Origin: Escherichia phage myPSH2311
Strand: one strand, 5' to 3'
Sequence record: MG976803.1
DNA: 64,000 nucleotides
The notes beneath the pieces are model-generated. The model was not told where the DNA came from. It ran no database searches and saw only the letters and a list, made by a program, of their open reading frames with translations. Positions 49,303-57,239 of the stretch are shown here, piece by piece. A program made the translations under genes and the position numbers. Positions within the stretch are counted from its first letter, which is position 1. Each line of letters starts with the position of its first letter.

Positions 49303-49515
49303 TTAAATACTTGGCTTCAAGTCTCCGAAGAGCCATGTGGCAATTTTATCTTGTTCTTCGTCGATATGATAAATCCAAGCGATAACAGTTTCACCTGAGT
49401 CCATCTTAACAGCAATCTGAGTACGCTGATAGAAGCTGTCTTCAGGGCTACGTTTGTTGTAACCTTCCAGACGGTCATACGGACCTTCCAGACCTGCTTT
49501 GTCAGTAGCAAACAC
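49303..49515 (-). CDS. AIG2/gamma-glutamyl-cyclotransferase-like protein, C-terminal part
   Basis: continues the 49627-49926 ORF once the filler and 110-bp duplication are removed. Confidence 0.45.
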   Translation of the reverse strand: MFATDKAGLEGPYDRLEGYNKRSPEDSFYQRTQIAVKMDSGETVIAWIYHIDEEQDKIATWLFGDLKPSI

Positions 49516-49606
49516 TTCTACACGAACAGGCTTGTTGTTATTGCTGTGTGCGAGAGAGATGCTCGGGAAGTAGGAACCACCGTAACGGAACAGATCAAAG
49601 TTGTCT

Positions 49607-49706
49607 AATGGGCCGTTTTATGCGGTTTAAAGGCCTTGACCAGTGCATTTGCCCGTTAAATGGCGTGGGGATTTCCCAGTGCGGGTGGCCAGTAAACGTG
49701 TTTTGT
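49607..49706. other. 100-bp GC-rich filler between 110-bp direct repeats
   Basis: 49497-49606 matches 49707-49816; intervening 100 bp unrelated. Confidence 0.8.
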
Positions 49707-49926
49707 CTTTGTCAGTAGCAAACACTTCTACACGAACAGGCTTGTTGTTATTGCTGTGTGCGAGAGAGATGCTCGGGAAGTAGGAACCACCGTAACGGAA
49801 CAGATCAAAGTTGTCTTCAGTCCAACCTTCACCAATTGACTTAGCACCAGCTCGGTCATTAACTAAATAGTTAGCTTGACCACGACGAAGAGAACCATAA
49901 GTTGCTACGTAAATTACTTCTGACAT
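49627..49926 (-). CDS. AIG2/gamma-glutamyl-cyclotransferase-like protein, N-terminal part
   Basis: N-terminal VATYGSLRRGQAN matches the YGSL/YGTL motif of the GGCT/AIG2 fold. Confidence 0.5.
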   Translation of the reverse strand: MSEVIYVATYGSLRRGQANYLVNDRAGAKSIGEGWTEDNFDLFRYGGSYFPSISLAHSNNNKPVRVEVFATDKDKTRLLATRTGKSPRHLTGKCTGQGL

Positions 49927-50137
49927 TATCTATACCTTTCCAGTCTTTCATGATGTTTTCAATGTAAGCACACTGCTGATCAGTGGCTCCTGTTACAAAC
50001 ACTTCTAACCCCAACTGCTCACAGAAGGGATTAAGAATCAATATTCTGGTTTGCCCATACGAGTGATGCTCTCGGTAGATAACACACCCAGCATCCCATA
50101 CAGAATCAATGGCTTTACTCAATCTTTCATGTTTCAT
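49871..50137 (-). CDS. hypothetical protein
   Basis: 88 aa ORF between the triplicated array and the GGCT-like gene. Confidence 0.4.
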   Translation of the reverse strand: MKHERLSKAIDSVWDAGCVIYREHHSYGQTRILILNPFCEQLGLEVFVTGATDQQCAYIENIMKDWKGIDNVRSNLRSNLWFSSSWSS

Positions 50138-54616: not shown

Positions 54617-55065
54617 AGGTAACCTACGCCTATATGTACGTGACCACAGTCAGTACGAAGTCCCTTGTTCTGAGAAGTGGGGGACGGATTTTTCTGACCA
54701 GTGAAAGCGTTGAAGTCAGGAGTACATCCAAAGATGAACGCTGATTCATTAAAGGTCTTCATTTCTTCTTCGGTGAAGATGTGAGAGCTAACACCCGGAG
54801 CTGTTTCCATGTCCAGTTTGTTCAGGACATTATTGGTAAGATCGATACCACGTTGCATGTTATCGTTAAACGCTTCAAAACCGCTCTGTGGGTCGATATC
54901 AAACTCAGCCAGTACGTTGTCCTCTTGAAGACGAACATCTTTAGCCAGAGTGATCTTATCGTCCTTAGAACAGCCTAATAGACCAGCTACAGAGGTGATG
55001 ATACCATTACTGGTACGAACGAACATTTCAGGGTCAGAGCCGATAAGGAATTTGCGCTTAGTCAT
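54577..55065 (-). CDS. hypothetical protein, possible N-terminal fragment of a carboxylate-amine ligase
   Basis: 162 aa; N-terminal FLIGSDPEMFV loosely resembles the GCS2/YbdK start motif; 3-prime end runs into filler; weak call. Confidence 0.3.
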   Translation of the reverse strand: MTKRKFLIGSDPEMFVRTSNGIITSVAGLLGCSKDDKITLAKDVRLQEDNVLAEFDIDPQSGFEAFNDNMQRGIDLTNNVLNKLDMETAPGVSSHIFTEEEMKTFNESAFIFGCTPDFNAFTGQKNPSPTSQNKGLRTDCGHVHIGVGYLCHHTSHYALRLT

Positions 55066-56029
55066 TGTAATACTCCACTAGTTCAGAAAAGAGAGATGAG
55101 ATTGTGTTACCAACTTCTTCAGGAGTAAGACCGGAATCTTCTCCAGTTCTTTGAATCAGTCGGGCTATAAAGTTTTGTACTGTAATGTTTCCCAACTTGT
55201 CGTCTATGGTTTCACGTTTATGACCATGACAAGTGGACCAGAGTCTTAGCCACTCTGACATTGTTGCATATTCAGCTGGGTCTTGATCTTTAGCAAGAGC
55301 AAATCTTCGTAAGGTCTCTGGGTTATGGTTACGAACATAGCCGTTCTCATTGTAACCAACACCAAAAGGGTTTTGAACCCATACTTGATTCGTGTATTCA
55401 TCAGAGTCTACAACCAAAGGAAGGAATGCTGATGCTGGCATATTGTAGTTAATAACAATAGATGTGCTCTCACTGCTCCCATTGGATCTTCCTTGTTGAG
55501 TCCACCCTCCAAAGAAGTCACGACCCAACCCAGCTAACACTAGAGCGATGCCGATGCGTTTACGCTTCAGCCACTCTTCCCTGTCTTCAATTCCTTCTGC
55601 TAGGAAATCCATTCCACGATACTGCCCTTCCAGAATGCTACGGAAGAGCATAAGTCCTGTGAAGATCTGATCTGCTGGATGCTCACGAAGGTTGACAGCA
55701 ACACTATTCGCTGAAGTGATCGTAAATACGTCACGATAGCAAGACATGGAGTTCATAATGTCTGCTGTTTCAACTAAGTTCTTTTCGATATCAGATGTAA
55801 CATGACCGTGAAAAGAGTGAGTCCAGTAATTCAACATCTCCAGTTGCAAGTTGATATCACGGTTGAAGCTACGATAGCGCCCTTCTTCCGTGATAACTTC
55901 ACCATTAATGTCATTTACCCACTGGCCTTGCATGTGGTTGTGGATACCGAAGCACCCACGACCTAAGAACTTCTGTTCCCCTAAATCCTGTTGAAGATTC
56001 AGAGGTACGATCGTTGTGGAGATTGACAT
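55058..56029 (-). CDS. hypothetical protein (amidoligase-cluster member)
   Basis: 323 aa ORF with overlap coupling. Confidence 0.45.
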   Translation of the reverse strand: MSISTTIVPLNLQQDLGEQKFLGRGCFGIHNHMQGQWVNDINGEVITEEGRYRSFNRDINLQLEMLNYWTHSFHGHVTSDIEKNLVETADIMNSMSCYRDVFTITSANSVAVNLREHPADQIFTGLMLFRSILEGQYRGMDFLAEGIEDREEWLKRKRIGIALVLAGLGRDFFGGWTQQGRSNGSSESTSIVINYNMPASAFLPLVVDSDEYTNQVWVQNPFGVGYNENGYVRNHNPETLRRFALAKDQDPAEYATMSEWLRLWSTCHGHKRETIDDKLGNITVQNFIARLIQRTGEDSGLTPEEVGNTISSLFSELVEYYND

Positions 56030-56039
56030 AACTAACCTT

Positions 56040-57239
56040 TTATTTTCCTAAAAATAATCCGCTCATAACACCATCCCACTCAGAGGATGGAATCACTGAA
56101 TACTCCGAACTTTGGTCCAGAGTCCCACTACTAAATCGCTGAATAATGTTGTAGATGTTGAACAGGTCTTTAGCCTCGGCACGAATGCCGTAGATTAACC
56201 TGTTAGCTGTTCTCTCATTTTTAGACACGCGACGGGTAAAGTTAATCAGAAGGTTGTCACATTTCAGGATTTCCGATTCACTCTCTACTAAGTCGGGGTG
56301 CATCACCGGCAAGAACATCGAGTTATTAACTCGTAATTCTGCTGTTTCATCATTCTCATAATGAATCCACTTAAAATCTTCATCACGGAAATGACCGCAT
56401 CCATCCCTATACGACTGTTGACGCCAAGGCACTTGAAATGCTTCAGCATATTTATCAGCCATACCAACTGTAAACAGTGACGCTGGGAAGATACAAGCAT
56501 CCCAATCATTACCGACCAGAGTTGCTTTCGTTTCGCCCAAGAGGTTGGTGTAGGTGCTAACCATTCGTGAGTAAACGTAAGCCTGAAGGATTGTCCAGCC
56601 TTCAACCAACCATTTATGAAGGAAGGTTTCCACTTGGCTCTCTTCATCTTCAAAATAGAAGGTTCGATCTAACATCAAATAGAACAGACAACGATCAGCA
56701 GGAACATTCTCAGTTGCTACACCCATAAAACCTTTTTCGTGCCAGCGTAAACAGGAGGGACGATCTTTGTCCACAAATGCTTCCATAGCTTCCAGTACAG
56801 CACGAGGTGTGGTTCGGTGTTCAGGGTTTTTGTCGTTCCAACGTTCGATGTTATTTTTAGGAGGTGTGTCTTCATCTTCATATGAACACCAACTTAAAGC
56901 TTCAGCTACGTGCTTTTCATCACGCCAGCGTCTGAAACCTAACATCTTCATGTGAGTTCCGGAGTTCCAGATATGCTTGATTTTACACATATCCATTTCT
57001 CGGCTTAGCCGGAACTCTTCTCCATCAGCACTACGAACGTTAGCTTCTTCATGCCACACTCGAACGTGCATATTCCACCCATGAGTTGCCTCATAAGTGT
57101 TAGGTTCAAAATATTCATCATACTCTTCATCGTCTTCATCAACGCCACCGTTATAGTTGCGAAGCTGAAGGAACCCATAACAAGGGGGGTTGACCGTTAA
57201 AACATTACCTTCAGTATCTTCTAATGTTACTGGAAACAT
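56040..57239 (-). CDS. hypothetical protein (amidoligase-cluster member)
   Basis: 399 aa, acidic and Trp-rich. Confidence 0.45.
   Translation of the reverse strand: MFPVTLEDTEGNVLTVNPPCYGFLQLRNYNGGVDEDDEEYDEYFEPNTYEATHGWNMHVRVWHEEANVRSADGEEFRLSREMDMCKIKHIWNSGTHMKMLGFRRWRDEKHVAEALSWCSYEDEDTPPKNNIERWNDKNPEHRTTPRAVLEAMEAFVDKDRPSCLRWHEKGFMGVATENVPADRCLFYLMLDRTFYFEDEESQVETFLHKWLVEGWTILQAYVYSRMVSTYTNLLGETKATLVGNDWDACIFPASLFTVGMADKYAEAFQVPWRQQSYRDGCGHFRDEDFKWIHYENDETAELRVNNSMFLPVMHPDLVESESEILKCDNLLINFTRRVSKNERTANRLIYGIRAEAKDLFNIYNIIQRFSSGTLDQSSEYSVIPSSEWDGVMSGLFLGK

What the first reader, a model, noticed from the sequence alone, without database searches (positions are those of the whole stretch)
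49303..57239. Amidoligase-type gene cluster in the phage early region
Contiguous minus-strand genes encode an ATP-grasp ligase (GHSGEGITV, EVNTAPG), an AIG2/gamma-glutamyl-cyclotransferase-like protein (VATYGSLRRGQAN), a possible carboxylate-amine ligase fragment, two unknown proteins of 323 and 399 aa, and two small proteins B (82 aa) and C (61 aa, C-terminal Glu). ATP-grasp plus GGCT is the logic of peptide or gamma-glutamyl tagging systems, so the cluster could synthesise or remodel a peptide modification on a protein or metabolite. No such function is established for this phage group.
Basis: partly seen in the sequence, partly recalled or inferred. Interest (0 to 1): 0.8.

Follow-up and report, generated by a model that had tools for sequence, protein, structure and literature searches.

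The report
Known phage ligase cluster, garbled assembly
The genes are real but are the long-known, already annotated amidoligase gene block of phiEco32-like (Kuravirus) E. coli phages, and what looks unusual about this copy (missing core enzymes, three ATP-grasp copies, a split cyclotransferase gene) comes from a badly stitched genome assembly, not from biology.

Summary
They belong to the conserved early-gene block of Kuravirus phages: 399 aa, 323 aa, COOH-NH2 ligase (Pfam PF14395, "phage phiEco32-like"), 205 aa, Amidoligase_2, class-II glutamine amidotransferase, DUF7195, 74 aa, RimK-like ATP-grasp, B, C, GGACT, primase/helicase. This block is annotated in dozens of GenBank genomes and was analysed in silico in 2009.

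The window matches phage myPSH2311, a contig pseudomolecule, and its version of the block is damaged:
- 4.7 kb is replaced by a 97-nt non-phage filler. The lost part holds the ligase C-terminus, the 205-aa gene, Amidoligase_2, the amidotransferase and two small genes.
- The ATP-grasp/B/C segment appears three times. Each copy is about 99.7-99.8% identical to a different published sequence, and two of those are other isolates. The copies are joined by ~95-nt fillers.
- GGACT is split by an unmerged 110-nt contig overlap and a 100-nt spacer.
- The same kind of break disrupts portal, head, tail-fibre and primase genes elsewhere in the window.

The claim of novelty and the B/C-substrate idea are not supported, because C's terminal Glu is not conserved. 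Interest is low. The function of the intact module is still untested experimentally.

The parts
56040..57239 (-). 399-aa conserved protein of unknown function, first gene of the module (identical to AVP40166.1, PSH2311_069)
55058..56029 (-). 323-aa conserved protein of unknown function (identical to AVP40165.1 and to the ES17 gp087 protein)
54577..55065 (-). Truncated phiEco32-type COOH-NH2 ligase: about 147 native N-terminal residues of 268, then about 15 filler-encoded residues
   Evidence: phrog_3815 positions 1-149 of 268. Alignment to ES17. The intact SU10 orthologue hits PF14395 at residues 139-213, a region absent here.
54527..54623 (.). 97-nt non-phage filler standing in for 4.7 kb (ES17 53752-58468). 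The missing stretch holds the ligase C-terminus, the 205-aa gene, Amidoligase_2, the class-II GATase, DUF7195, the 74-aa gene and the ATP-grasp start.
   Evidence: breakpoints. (no blastn hit in 50,697 phage records). (composition z -2.7 and -3.0).
53396..54616 (-). ATP-grasp ORF, copy 3 (ES17-type). Residues 32-406 are identical to ES17 residues 26-400. The conserved N-terminal strand (MTTRIxVLPYG) is replaced by filler-encoded residues.
   Evidence: (99.8% to ES17).
52959..53389 (-). B (53141-53389, 82 aa) and C (52959-53144, 61 aa), copy 3
   Evidence: phrog_8339 and phrog_8591.
52860..52925 (-). 5' end of GGACT with its upstream sequence, repeated at the low-coordinate edge of contig copy 3
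   Evidence: (family D6).
52764..52859 (.). 96-nt filler between copies 2 and 3
51461..52763 (-). Copy 2: truncated ATP-grasp (52030-52740, 236 aa, no GHSGEG loop), B (51775-52023), C (51593-51778) and the GGACT 5' end (51461-51536). 99.8% identical to Shigella phage ShigP1, FS2B and EcK-vB.
51367..51460 (.). 94-nt filler between copies 1 and 2 (contains GCATGCATGCATGCAT)
49940..51366 (-). Copy 1: truncated ATP-grasp (50628-51366), B (50373-50621), C (50191-50376) and a gp079-type small ORF (49871-50137). 99.7% identical to copy 1 of the myPSH1131 record, at most 95.4% to other phages.
49303..49926 (-). GGACT (gamma-glutamylamine cyclotransferase-like) gene split in two. 49627-49926 gives ES17 residues 1-73 plus junk. 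49303-49515 gives residues 69-124 plus junk. Between them lie a 100-nt spacer (49607-49706) and an exact 110-nt duplication (49497-49606 = 49707-49816). A 12-nt filler (49335-49346) replaces the last 59 nt.
   Evidence: (family D7).
48792..48960 (.). 169-nt filler inside primase/helicase. It leaves a 446-aa C-terminal ORF and a 72-aa zinc-finger ORF in place of the 596-aa gene.

Best explanation
The region is the well-known early-gene amidoligase module of Kuravirus (phiEco32-like) coliphages. Here it is seen through a faulty pseudomolecule, Escherichia phage myPSH2311, GenBank MG976803.

How the window came to look this way:
- The phage preparation appears to have held several closely related Kuravirus strains (inferred).
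- De novo contigs then broke at strain-variable sites, giving three alternative contigs for the same ATP-grasp/B/C/GGACT-start locus (inferred).
- Reference-guided ordering laid contigs end to end with spacers of about 100 nt instead of merging them. Overlapping neighbours were left unmerged and unplaced regions were left out (inferred from the sister record's published method).
- The spacers now read as non-phage filler.
- This produces an apparent triplication, an apparent 4.7-kb deletion of the module's core, a split GGACT gene, and chimeric ORF ends.

The phage itself most probably carries one intact copy of the 13-gene module: 399 aa, 323 aa, COOH-NH2 ligase, ~205 aa, Amidoligase_2, class-II glutamine amidotransferase, DUF7195, ~75 aa, RimK-like ATP-grasp, B, C, GGACT, then primase/helicase.

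Likely function of the intact module (inferred from domain content, not shown):
- Three unrelated ATP-dependent carboxylate-amine ligases act in succession to build a small peptide-like or gamma-glutamyl-linked product.
- The Ntn amidotransferase supplies ammonia, or works as an amidohydrolase.
- GGACT releases or recycles a gamma-glutamyl-amine.
- The product is a metabolite or a modification of a host envelope or protein target made early in infection. Papers citing Iyer et al. 2009 describe the prediction as cell-wall modification that blocks superinfection.
For: Identity of the window:
- The 399-aa, 323-aa and truncated 446-aa primase ORFs are exactly the myPSH2311 proteins AVP40166.1, AVP40165.1 and AVP40154.1.

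Known module:
- 97 phage records match the region. 65 of them match at least 80% of the query in one place.
- SU10 and ES17 annotation lists the full gene set.
- Pfam on the SU10 proteins gives GGACT, GATase_6, Amidoligase_2, COOH-NH2_lig ('Phage phiEco32-like') and DUF7195.
- Five contigs whose proteins are only 35-45% identical to the query keep the same order, with a single copy.

Artefact:
- The three copies are 90-93% identical to each other. Yet copy 3 is 99.8% identical to ES17 and copy 2 is 99.8% identical to ShigP1. Copy 1 is 99.7% identical to copy 1 of the myPSH1131 record and at most 95.4% to other phages.
- Of 90 records, only myPSH1131, from the same laboratory, has more than one copy, and it carries near-identical copies (99.7-100%).
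- The window and that record share blocks and breakpoints but differ in junction sequence. Each holds what the other lacks: the GenBank myPSH1131 record has the GATase and amidoligase, the window has the 323/399-aa genes.
- Fifteen fillers (1557 nt) have no blastn hit in 50,697 phage records.
- Their GC is 0.50 against 0.42 for the rest. GCGC, CGCG, GGCC and TGCG are 10-15x enriched. Held-out Markov z-scores run from -2.4 to -5.4.
- Nine of the 15 fillers are 94-100 nt long.
- Exact 110-nt and 81-nt overlaps flank 100-nt spacers.
- The same kind of break disrupts portal, major head, tail fibre and primase/helicase.
- The myPSH1131 paper describes CLC de novo assembly followed by CONTIGuator2 against a reference.
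- A Kuravirus pangenome study excluded four phages, which it does not name, for assembly errors.
Against: - The deposited MG976803 record and its reads could not be inspected. It is therefore not shown whether the fillers are in the public record or were substituted for N runs later.
- No read-level evidence was available.
- A mixed-strain origin is inferred from the identity pattern, not demonstrated.
- That CONTIGuator inserts 100-N spacers is from memory, not from a tool result.
- The proposed biochemical function of the intact module rests only on domain content and second-hand citation. The 2009 paper itself was not readable.
Confidence: 0.85

Rival explanations
1. The triplication and the 4.7-kb loss are real. 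A Kuravirus lineage (myPSH2311 and myPSH1131) acquired three diverged ATP-grasp/B/C cassettes by recombination with co-infecting relatives and lost the amidotransferase/amidoligase core.
For: Two database records from one laboratory show the same three copies in the same order. Gene amplification under selection is known in viruses in general (background knowledge).
Against: - Copies 2 and 3 each match a different independent isolate at 99.8%.
- Two ATP-grasp copies are truncated at the same point and lack the ATP-binding loop.
- Junction sequences differ between the two records and match no phage.
- The sister record does contain the supposedly lost core.
- Essential genes are broken in the same way throughout the window.
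- 89 other records and 5 distant contigs are single-copy.
Confidence: 0.04
2. ATP-grasp plus GGCT form a self-contained peptide or gamma-glutamyl tagging system. The small proteins B and C are its substrates, with C being extended at its C-terminal Glu as RimK extends ribosomal protein S6.
For: - The ATP-grasp profile is closest to RimK among solved structures (E = 3.4e-6).
- B always follows the ATP-grasp gene, even in distant phages, and is strongly conserved.
- In Kuravirus, C ends in Glu.
Against: - C's terminal residue is Ser in two distant homologues, and C is poorly conserved.
- The ATP-grasp never occurs without the COOH-NH2 ligase, Amidoligase_2 and GATase in the contexts examined. 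GGACT can be about 6 kb away.
- The match to RimK is far below the family cut-offs: 15.9 against 21 bits for Pfam, 31.5 against 143 for TIGR00768.
- Some records name B a transcriptional regulator.
Confidence: 0.08
3. The fillers were introduced after deposition. On this view runs of N in the public record were replaced by made-up bases when the window was prepared, and the deposited record is otherwise a normal gapped scaffold.
For: - Six ORFs that run into fillers, or end at a filler-created stop, are absent from a 15-billion-protein collection. Three ORFs that avoid fillers are present as myPSH2311 proteins.
- Many fillers are almost exactly 100 nt long.
Against: - The GenBank sister record myPSH1131 itself contains 99-100-nt segments of odd composition (62761-62859, 72591-72689) and only 2 N. 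Such fillers may therefore be in the deposits.
- Absence of an ORF from the collection may only reflect which genes the depositors annotated.
Confidence: 0.35

Closest known systems
phiEco32 / Kuravirus amidoligase module (Iyer, Abhiman, Burroughs & Aravind 2009; Pfam PF14395 COOH-NH2_lig, PF12224 Amidoligase_2, PF13522 GATase_6, PF06094 GGACT)
   Same: The genes are orthologous at 92-100% identity. They keep the same order and the same position upstream of primase/helicase.
   Different: The window lacks the ligase C-terminus, the 205-aa protein, Amidoligase_2, the GATase, DUF7195 and the 74-aa protein. It shows three ATP-grasp/B/C copies and a split GGACT. All of these are attributable to assembly.
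RimK (ribosomal protein S6 L-glutamate ligase) and RimK-family alpha-L-glutamate ligases
   Same: ATP-grasp fold signatures are present: the GHSGEG loop and the E-x-N Mg-ATP motif. RimK is the best solved-structure match to the family profile (5zct/4iwx, E = 3.4e-6), and the match is collinear in two stretches.
   Different: Scores are far below the RimK family cut-offs. The phage protein has an extra acidic linker and an ~80-residue C-terminal domain (phrog_20552). No conserved Glu-terminated acceptor was found. It is linked to two other ligase types and a GATase.
Escherichia phage myPSH1131 (GenBank MG983840.1)
   Same: It carries near-identical contig blocks (45 kb of the window at 99% or more), including the same three ATP-grasp/B/C copies in the same order. 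The laboratory is the same, and the published pipeline is CLC plus CONTIGuator2.
   Different: The junction sequences differ. It retains the GATase/amidoligase region, partly duplicated, but lacks the 323-aa gene and part of the 399-aa gene.
GGACT / AIG2-like gamma-glutamyl(amine) cyclotransferases (E. coli YtfP type)
   Same: PF06094 scores above threshold. The YGSLR motif and the downstream LEGY motif are both present.
   Different: In the window the two motifs lie in separate ORFs because of the 100-nt spacer. The substrate is unknown.

Membership tests
ATP-grasp superfamily, RimK-like branch | Glycine-rich ATP-binding loop and C-terminal E-x-N Mg-ATP motif | tested here: met
   GHSGEGI and LEVNTAPG are present in copy 3. 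G126, H127, S128, G129, E241 and N243 are invariant in 27 homologues. Copies 1 and 2 lack the loop.
ATP-grasp superfamily, RimK-like branch | Score above the curated cut-off of RimK models (PF08443, TIGR00768, NF007764) | tested here: not met
   15.9 against 21 bits, 31.5 against 143.4, and 25.1 against 331. The family profile against PDB puts RimK first at E = 3.4e-6. This is a superfamily relative, not a RimK equivalog.
ATP-grasp superfamily, RimK-like branch | Complete N-terminal domain | tested here: not met
   In the window, the conserved first 25 residues (MTTRIxVLPYGPS...) are replaced by about 30 filler-encoded residues. ES17, SU10 and the distant homologues are intact.
GGACT / AIG2-like (PF06094) | Pfam score above the gathering threshold, with the YGSL motif | tested here: met
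   26.2 and 25.4 bits for the two halves, against 22.8. 63.6 bits for intact SU10 gp078.
GGACT / AIG2-like (PF06094) | Single ORF containing both the YGSL and the downstream Glu-containing (LEGY) motif | tested here: not met
   The gene is split at 49607-49706 by a 100-nt spacer and a 110-nt duplication. The C-terminus is replaced at 49335-49346.
phiEco32-like COOH-NH2 ligase type 2 (PF14395) | Pfam match above the gathering threshold | tested here: not met
   The window fragment gives no Pfam hit, because only residues 1-147 remain. The SU10 orthologue scores 34.0 against 25 bits over residues 139-213. PHROG 3815 confirms orthology of the fragment.
Kuravirus/phiEco32 amidoligase module | Presence of the class-II glutamine amidotransferase and Amidoligase_2 | tested here: not met
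   ES17 53752-58468 has no counterpart in the window. Both are present in SU10, ES17, the myPSH1131 record and 5 distant contigs.
Kuravirus/phiEco32 amidoligase module | Gene order 399 aa - 323 aa - COOH-NH2 ligase ... ATP-grasp - B - C - GGACT - primase/helicase, single copy | tested here: inconclusive
   The order is kept, but the ATP-grasp/B/C part is present three times. This is judged an assembly artefact.
RimK/S6-type C-terminal glutamylation of a dedicated small protein | Conserved acidic C-terminus on the candidate acceptor (C, 61 aa) | tested here: not met
   Kuravirus C ends ...FITE. The homologues in L008 and L010 end ...GETFS and ...KNPES.
RimK/S6-type C-terminal glutamylation of a dedicated small protein | Demonstrated addition of residues to B or C | not testable with these tools
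   This needs mass spectrometry of infected or co-expressing cells.

The most novel reading that the evidence does not exclude
A plaque-pure Kuravirus really carries three diverged ATP-grasp/B/C cassettes in tandem, captured from co-infecting relatives, and has dispensed with the amidotransferase and the two other ligases. That would mean the ATP-grasp/B/C unit works on its own and is under selection for copy number or diversity.
Probability: 0.03. Interest if true: 0.45.

Novelty: already known. Interest (0 to 1): 0.1.

Why it matters
As a discovery it matters little. The cluster is annotated in many Kuravirus genomes, one of its families has a Pfam entry named after phiEco32, and a functional prediction has been in the literature since 2009.

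Three practical points do follow:
- Low-quality pseudomolecules such as myPSH2311 and myPSH1131 can mimic gene amplification, gene loss and novel fusion ORFs. They should be filtered before scanning.
- The intact 13-gene module is strikingly conserved in order across phages whose proteins are only 35-45% identical to the query. It includes two proteins with no recognisable fold relatives. No experimental test of it turned up in the literature searches here, so it is a legitimate, though not new, target for experiment.
- The specific suggestion that C is a Glu-terminated acceptor can be dropped.

Tried and rejected
- Tandem Repeats Finder found nothing, because the period exceeds its 500-nt limit. 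The repeat finder did show the copies.
- An exact-match scan of IMG/VR for a 41-nt piece of the 54527-54623 filler gave 0 hits.
- A blastn of 1557 nt of concatenated fillers against all phage records gave no match.
- Iyer et al. 2009 (PMC3268129) is not held. Its content is cited only through papers that cite it.
- MG976803 is not in the phage collection.
- The look-up of encoding contigs returned only short Logan contigs, not the NCBI record. The fillers could therefore not be compared with the deposit.
- phmmer against PDB also gave nothing for the two proteins.
- The two unknown proteins share a PAD(R/Q)..F..LM..R motif, but the profile-profile comparison is not significant (probability 0.4%). 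Paralogy was rejected.
- NCBIfam gave no family-level assignment for any module protein.
- Real tandem amplification was considered and rejected. The reasons are the copy-to-isolate identities and the irreproducible junctions.

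
Full report
**What is in the sequence.**
- 399 aa at 56040-57239.
- 323 aa at 55058-56029.
- A 162-aa ligase-like fragment at 54577-55065.
- A 406-aa ATP-grasp ORF at 53396-54616, with GHSGEGITV and EVNTAPG.
- B, 82 aa, and C, 61 aa, ending in Glu.
- An ORF starting MSEVIYVATYGSLRRGQAN.

B and C occur three times. There are two further, N-terminally truncated ATP-grasp ORFs (52030-52740 and 50628-51419). The MSEVIYVATYGSLRRGQAN start occurs twice. The cyclotransferase is split into two ORFs (49627-49926 and 49303-49515). 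The repeat finder gives three copies with spacings of 1366-1402 bp and 90-98% identity, and an exact 110-nt duplication 210 nt apart inside the cyclotransferase gene.

**What the genes are.**
- PHROG scans assign every ORF to a phage family: ATP-grasp phrog_2599, COOH.NH2 ligase phrog_3815 (only positions 1-149 of 268), gamma-glutamyl cyclotransferase phrog_2520 in two halves, and unknown-function families for the 399-aa, 323-aa, B and C proteins.
- Pfam finds GGACT above threshold in both halves, and only sub-threshold RimK and Ddl hits for the ATP-grasp.
- Megablast against 50,697 phage records finds 97 Kuravirus-type (phiEco32-like) coliphages. The closest is ES17.
- In SU10 and ES17 the region is about 10 kb. 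It reads, in transcription order: 399 aa, 323 aa, COOH.NH2 ligase (268 aa), 205 aa, amidoligase (367 aa), a GlmS-like glutamine amidotransferase (562-676 aa), 77 aa, 74 aa, ATP-grasp (400 aa), B, C, (69 aa), GGACT (139 aa), a small ORF, primase/helicase.
- Pfam on the intact SU10 proteins gives GGACT, GATase_6/7, Amidoligase_2, DUF7195 and PF14395, 'Phage phiEco32-like COOH.NH2 ligase-type 2'.
- Papers citing Iyer et al. 2009 say that work predicted a role for the phiEco32 amidoligase and amidotransferase in cell-wall modification that prevents superinfection.
- SU10 proteomics detected the ATP-grasp, the amidotransferase and the YtfP-like protein as early gene products.
- The cluster is therefore already annotated and already has a published in-silico interpretation.

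**The window's version is a patchwork.** Aligned to ES17 and SU10:
- Window 54624-57700 matches ES17 58469-61545 (97.9%).
- Window 52860-54526 matches ES17 52085-53751 (99.8%).
- Between these two blocks, 97 nt replace 4717 nt of ES17. The lost part is the ligase C-terminus, the 205-aa gene, the amidoligase, the amidotransferase, DUF7195, the 74-aa gene and the first 25 codons of the ATP-grasp.
- The 406-aa ORF is ES17 residues 26-400 at 100% identity, preceded by about 30 residues read out of the filler. The missing N-terminus (MTTRIxVLPYGPS) is conserved even in homologues that are 45-50% identical.
- The ligase fragment keeps 147 native residues and then runs into the filler.

The three ATP-grasp/B/C copies are not paralogues of one another:
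- Copy 3 is 99.8% identical to ES17.
- Copy 2 (51461-52763) is 99.8% identical over its full length to Shigella phage ShigP1, FS2B and EcK-vB.
- Copy 1 is 99.7% identical to one copy in phage myPSH1131 and at most 95.4% to anything else.
- Among 90 matching records there are 93 places. The three extra places all lie in the myPSH1131 record.

**Provenance.**
- The myPSH1131 record (MG983840.1) has the same three copies in the same order, among many fragmentary genes.
- It shares 45 kb with the window at 99% identity or more, including breakpoints.
- The junction sequences differ between the two.
- Where the window has a 12-140-nt filler, the myPSH1131 record often has the natural ES17 sequence.
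- The myPSH1131 record contains the amidotransferase/amidoligase region but lacks the 323-aa gene and part of the 399-aa gene. The window is the reverse.
- Exact-sequence look-ups identify the window. The truncated 446-aa primase/helicase ORF is AVP40154.1, the 399-aa protein is AVP40166.1 (PSH2311_069) and the 323-aa protein is AVP40165.1. All are from Escherichia phage myPSH2311, 68,712 bp.
- Six ORFs that read into fillers, or end at a stop created by one, are absent from the collection.
- The myPSH1131 paper, from the same group, describes CLC de novo assembly followed by CONTIGuator2 ordering against a reference.
- From memory, CONTIGuator joins contigs with 100 N.
- A Kuravirus pangenome study excluded four phages, which it does not name, for assembly errors.

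**The fillers.**
- Across the whole window there are about 30 breakpoints relative to ES17.
- Fifteen fillers of 68-169 nt total 1557 nt. Nine are 94-100 nt long.
- They have no blastn match in any phage record, and a 41-nt piece has none in IMG/VR.
- Their GC is 0.50 against 0.42 for the rest of the window. GCGC, CGCG, GGCC and TGCG are 10-15-fold enriched. Common phage tetramers such as AAGA and ATCA are absent.
- Under a Markov model trained on ES17, with SU10 as held-out baseline, they score z = -2.4 to -5.4. The lowest natural 100-nt window is near -3.
- The myPSH1131 GenBank record also has 99-100-nt segments of odd composition. Such fillers may therefore be in the deposits rather than added later. 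I could not check MG976803 itself.
- Fillers and short replacements break the portal gene (a 76-nt stretch replaced by 12 nt, creating a stop). They also break the major head gene, the tail fibre, the 1473-aa 'TolA' protein and primase/helicase.
- As written, the window cannot be a viable genome.
- Two spacers of exactly 100 nt are flanked by unmerged overlaps, 110 nt in GGACT and 81 nt at 27923-28022. That is the signature of adjacent contigs concatenated rather than merged.

**Interpretation.** The simplest account is a mixed population of at least three Kuravirus strains. The contigs broke at strain-variable loci, and reference-guided concatenation then placed the three allelic contigs of the ATP-grasp/B/C locus in tandem. 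Overlaps were left unmerged and the core of the module was omitted. A real amplification is very unlikely, for four reasons. Copies 2 and 3 each equal a different isolate. The junctions are not reproducible between the two sister records. The truncated copies lack the ATP-binding loop. Every other genome examined is single-copy.

**The intact module.**
- Distant homologues of the 399-aa and ATP-grasp proteins, 35-45% identical, lie on contigs of 50-104 kb. All keep the order [~300-400 aa][~280-330 aa] - COOH-NH2_lig - ~200 aa - Amidoligase_2 - GATase_6 - DUF7195 - ~75 aa - ATP-grasp - B-like. GGACT sits just upstream of primase/helicase.
- In three of the five contigs GGACT is separated from the ATP-grasp by 2.6-6.5 kb of variable genes (HNH, NUDIX, RtcB, Rnl2).
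- The tight functional core is therefore three ligase types plus the amidotransferase, not 'ATP-grasp plus GGCT'.
- A 27-sequence ATP-grasp profile hits E. coli RimK first among solved structures (E = 3.4e-6), then RimK-family glutamate ligases, then Ddl. Curated RimK models are far from met.
- C's terminal Glu is not conserved (...TFS and ...PES in two homologues). B is highly conserved.
- My working mechanism for the intact module is inferred from domain content. It is successive ATP-dependent amide ligations that build a gamma-glutamyl or peptide-like product early in infection. The amidotransferase supplies nitrogen and GGACT cleaves or recycles a gamma-glutamyl-amine.
- I put about 0.45 on a metabolite or envelope modification, about 0.2 on a protein tag, and leave the rest open.

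**Verdict.** Novelty is 'already known'. Interest is 0.1.

Noticed in passing
window 1-64000 (for example 5296-5307, 7368-7466, 10487-10595, 24148-24161, 26976-27115, 27923-28022, 40185-40286, 42079-42178, 44072-44171, 48792-48960, 60549-60648): There are about 30 breakpoints relative to ES17. Many are marked by non-phage fillers of about 100 nt, or by 12-36 nt replacing 59-96 nt. They break portal, major head, tail fibre, the 1473-aa 'TolA'/injection protein and primase/helicase. Any other finding from this window that touches these coordinates should be treated as suspect.
   Followed up: yes
window 47445-48785, 55058-57239: Exact protein matches identify the window as Escherichia phage myPSH2311 (GenBank MG976803, 68,712 bp). 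That record is missing from the phage collection searched here.
   Followed up: yes
L005-L007 (GenBank MG983840.1, myPSH1131), e.g. record 53486-58201, 62761-62859, 72591-72689: The public myPSH1131 'complete genome' shares identical contigs with the window, including the three ATP-grasp/B/C copies. It has its own duplications and 99-100-nt segments of odd composition. The two deposits look like different stitchings of one mixed contig pool.
   Followed up: partly
[not shown]
   Followed up: partly
window 55058-56029 and 56040-57239: The 323-aa and 399-aa proteins share a short motif, HPADQIFTGLMLFR against VPADRCLFYLMLDR, at the start of a helix that follows a strand. The profile-profile comparison is not significant (probability 0.4%).
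   Followed up: yes
window 53396-53650 (ATP-grasp residues about 325-406): The last ~82 residues of the ATP-grasp, after an acidic low-complexity linker, match a separate PHROG (phrog_20552, 82 aa). This C-terminal domain therefore also seems to exist as a stand-alone phage protein. Its role is unknown.
   Followed up: no
L008, L010, L013 (distant phage contigs): In distant relatives the module's neighbours include NAPRTase plus PRPP synthetase, ProQ, TerC/TerD, RtcB, Rnl2-type RNA ligase, NUDIX and an NMN transporter. These are auxiliary genes absent from Kuravirus.
   Followed up: no
window 34436-34729, 44462-45508, 58000-58454, 63384-63540: These segments have no ES17 counterpart but a normal phage composition. 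For example, the 155-aa membrane-protein ORF at 57995-58462 has the position and size of SU10 gp093. They look like natural strain variation rather than filler.
   Followed up: no
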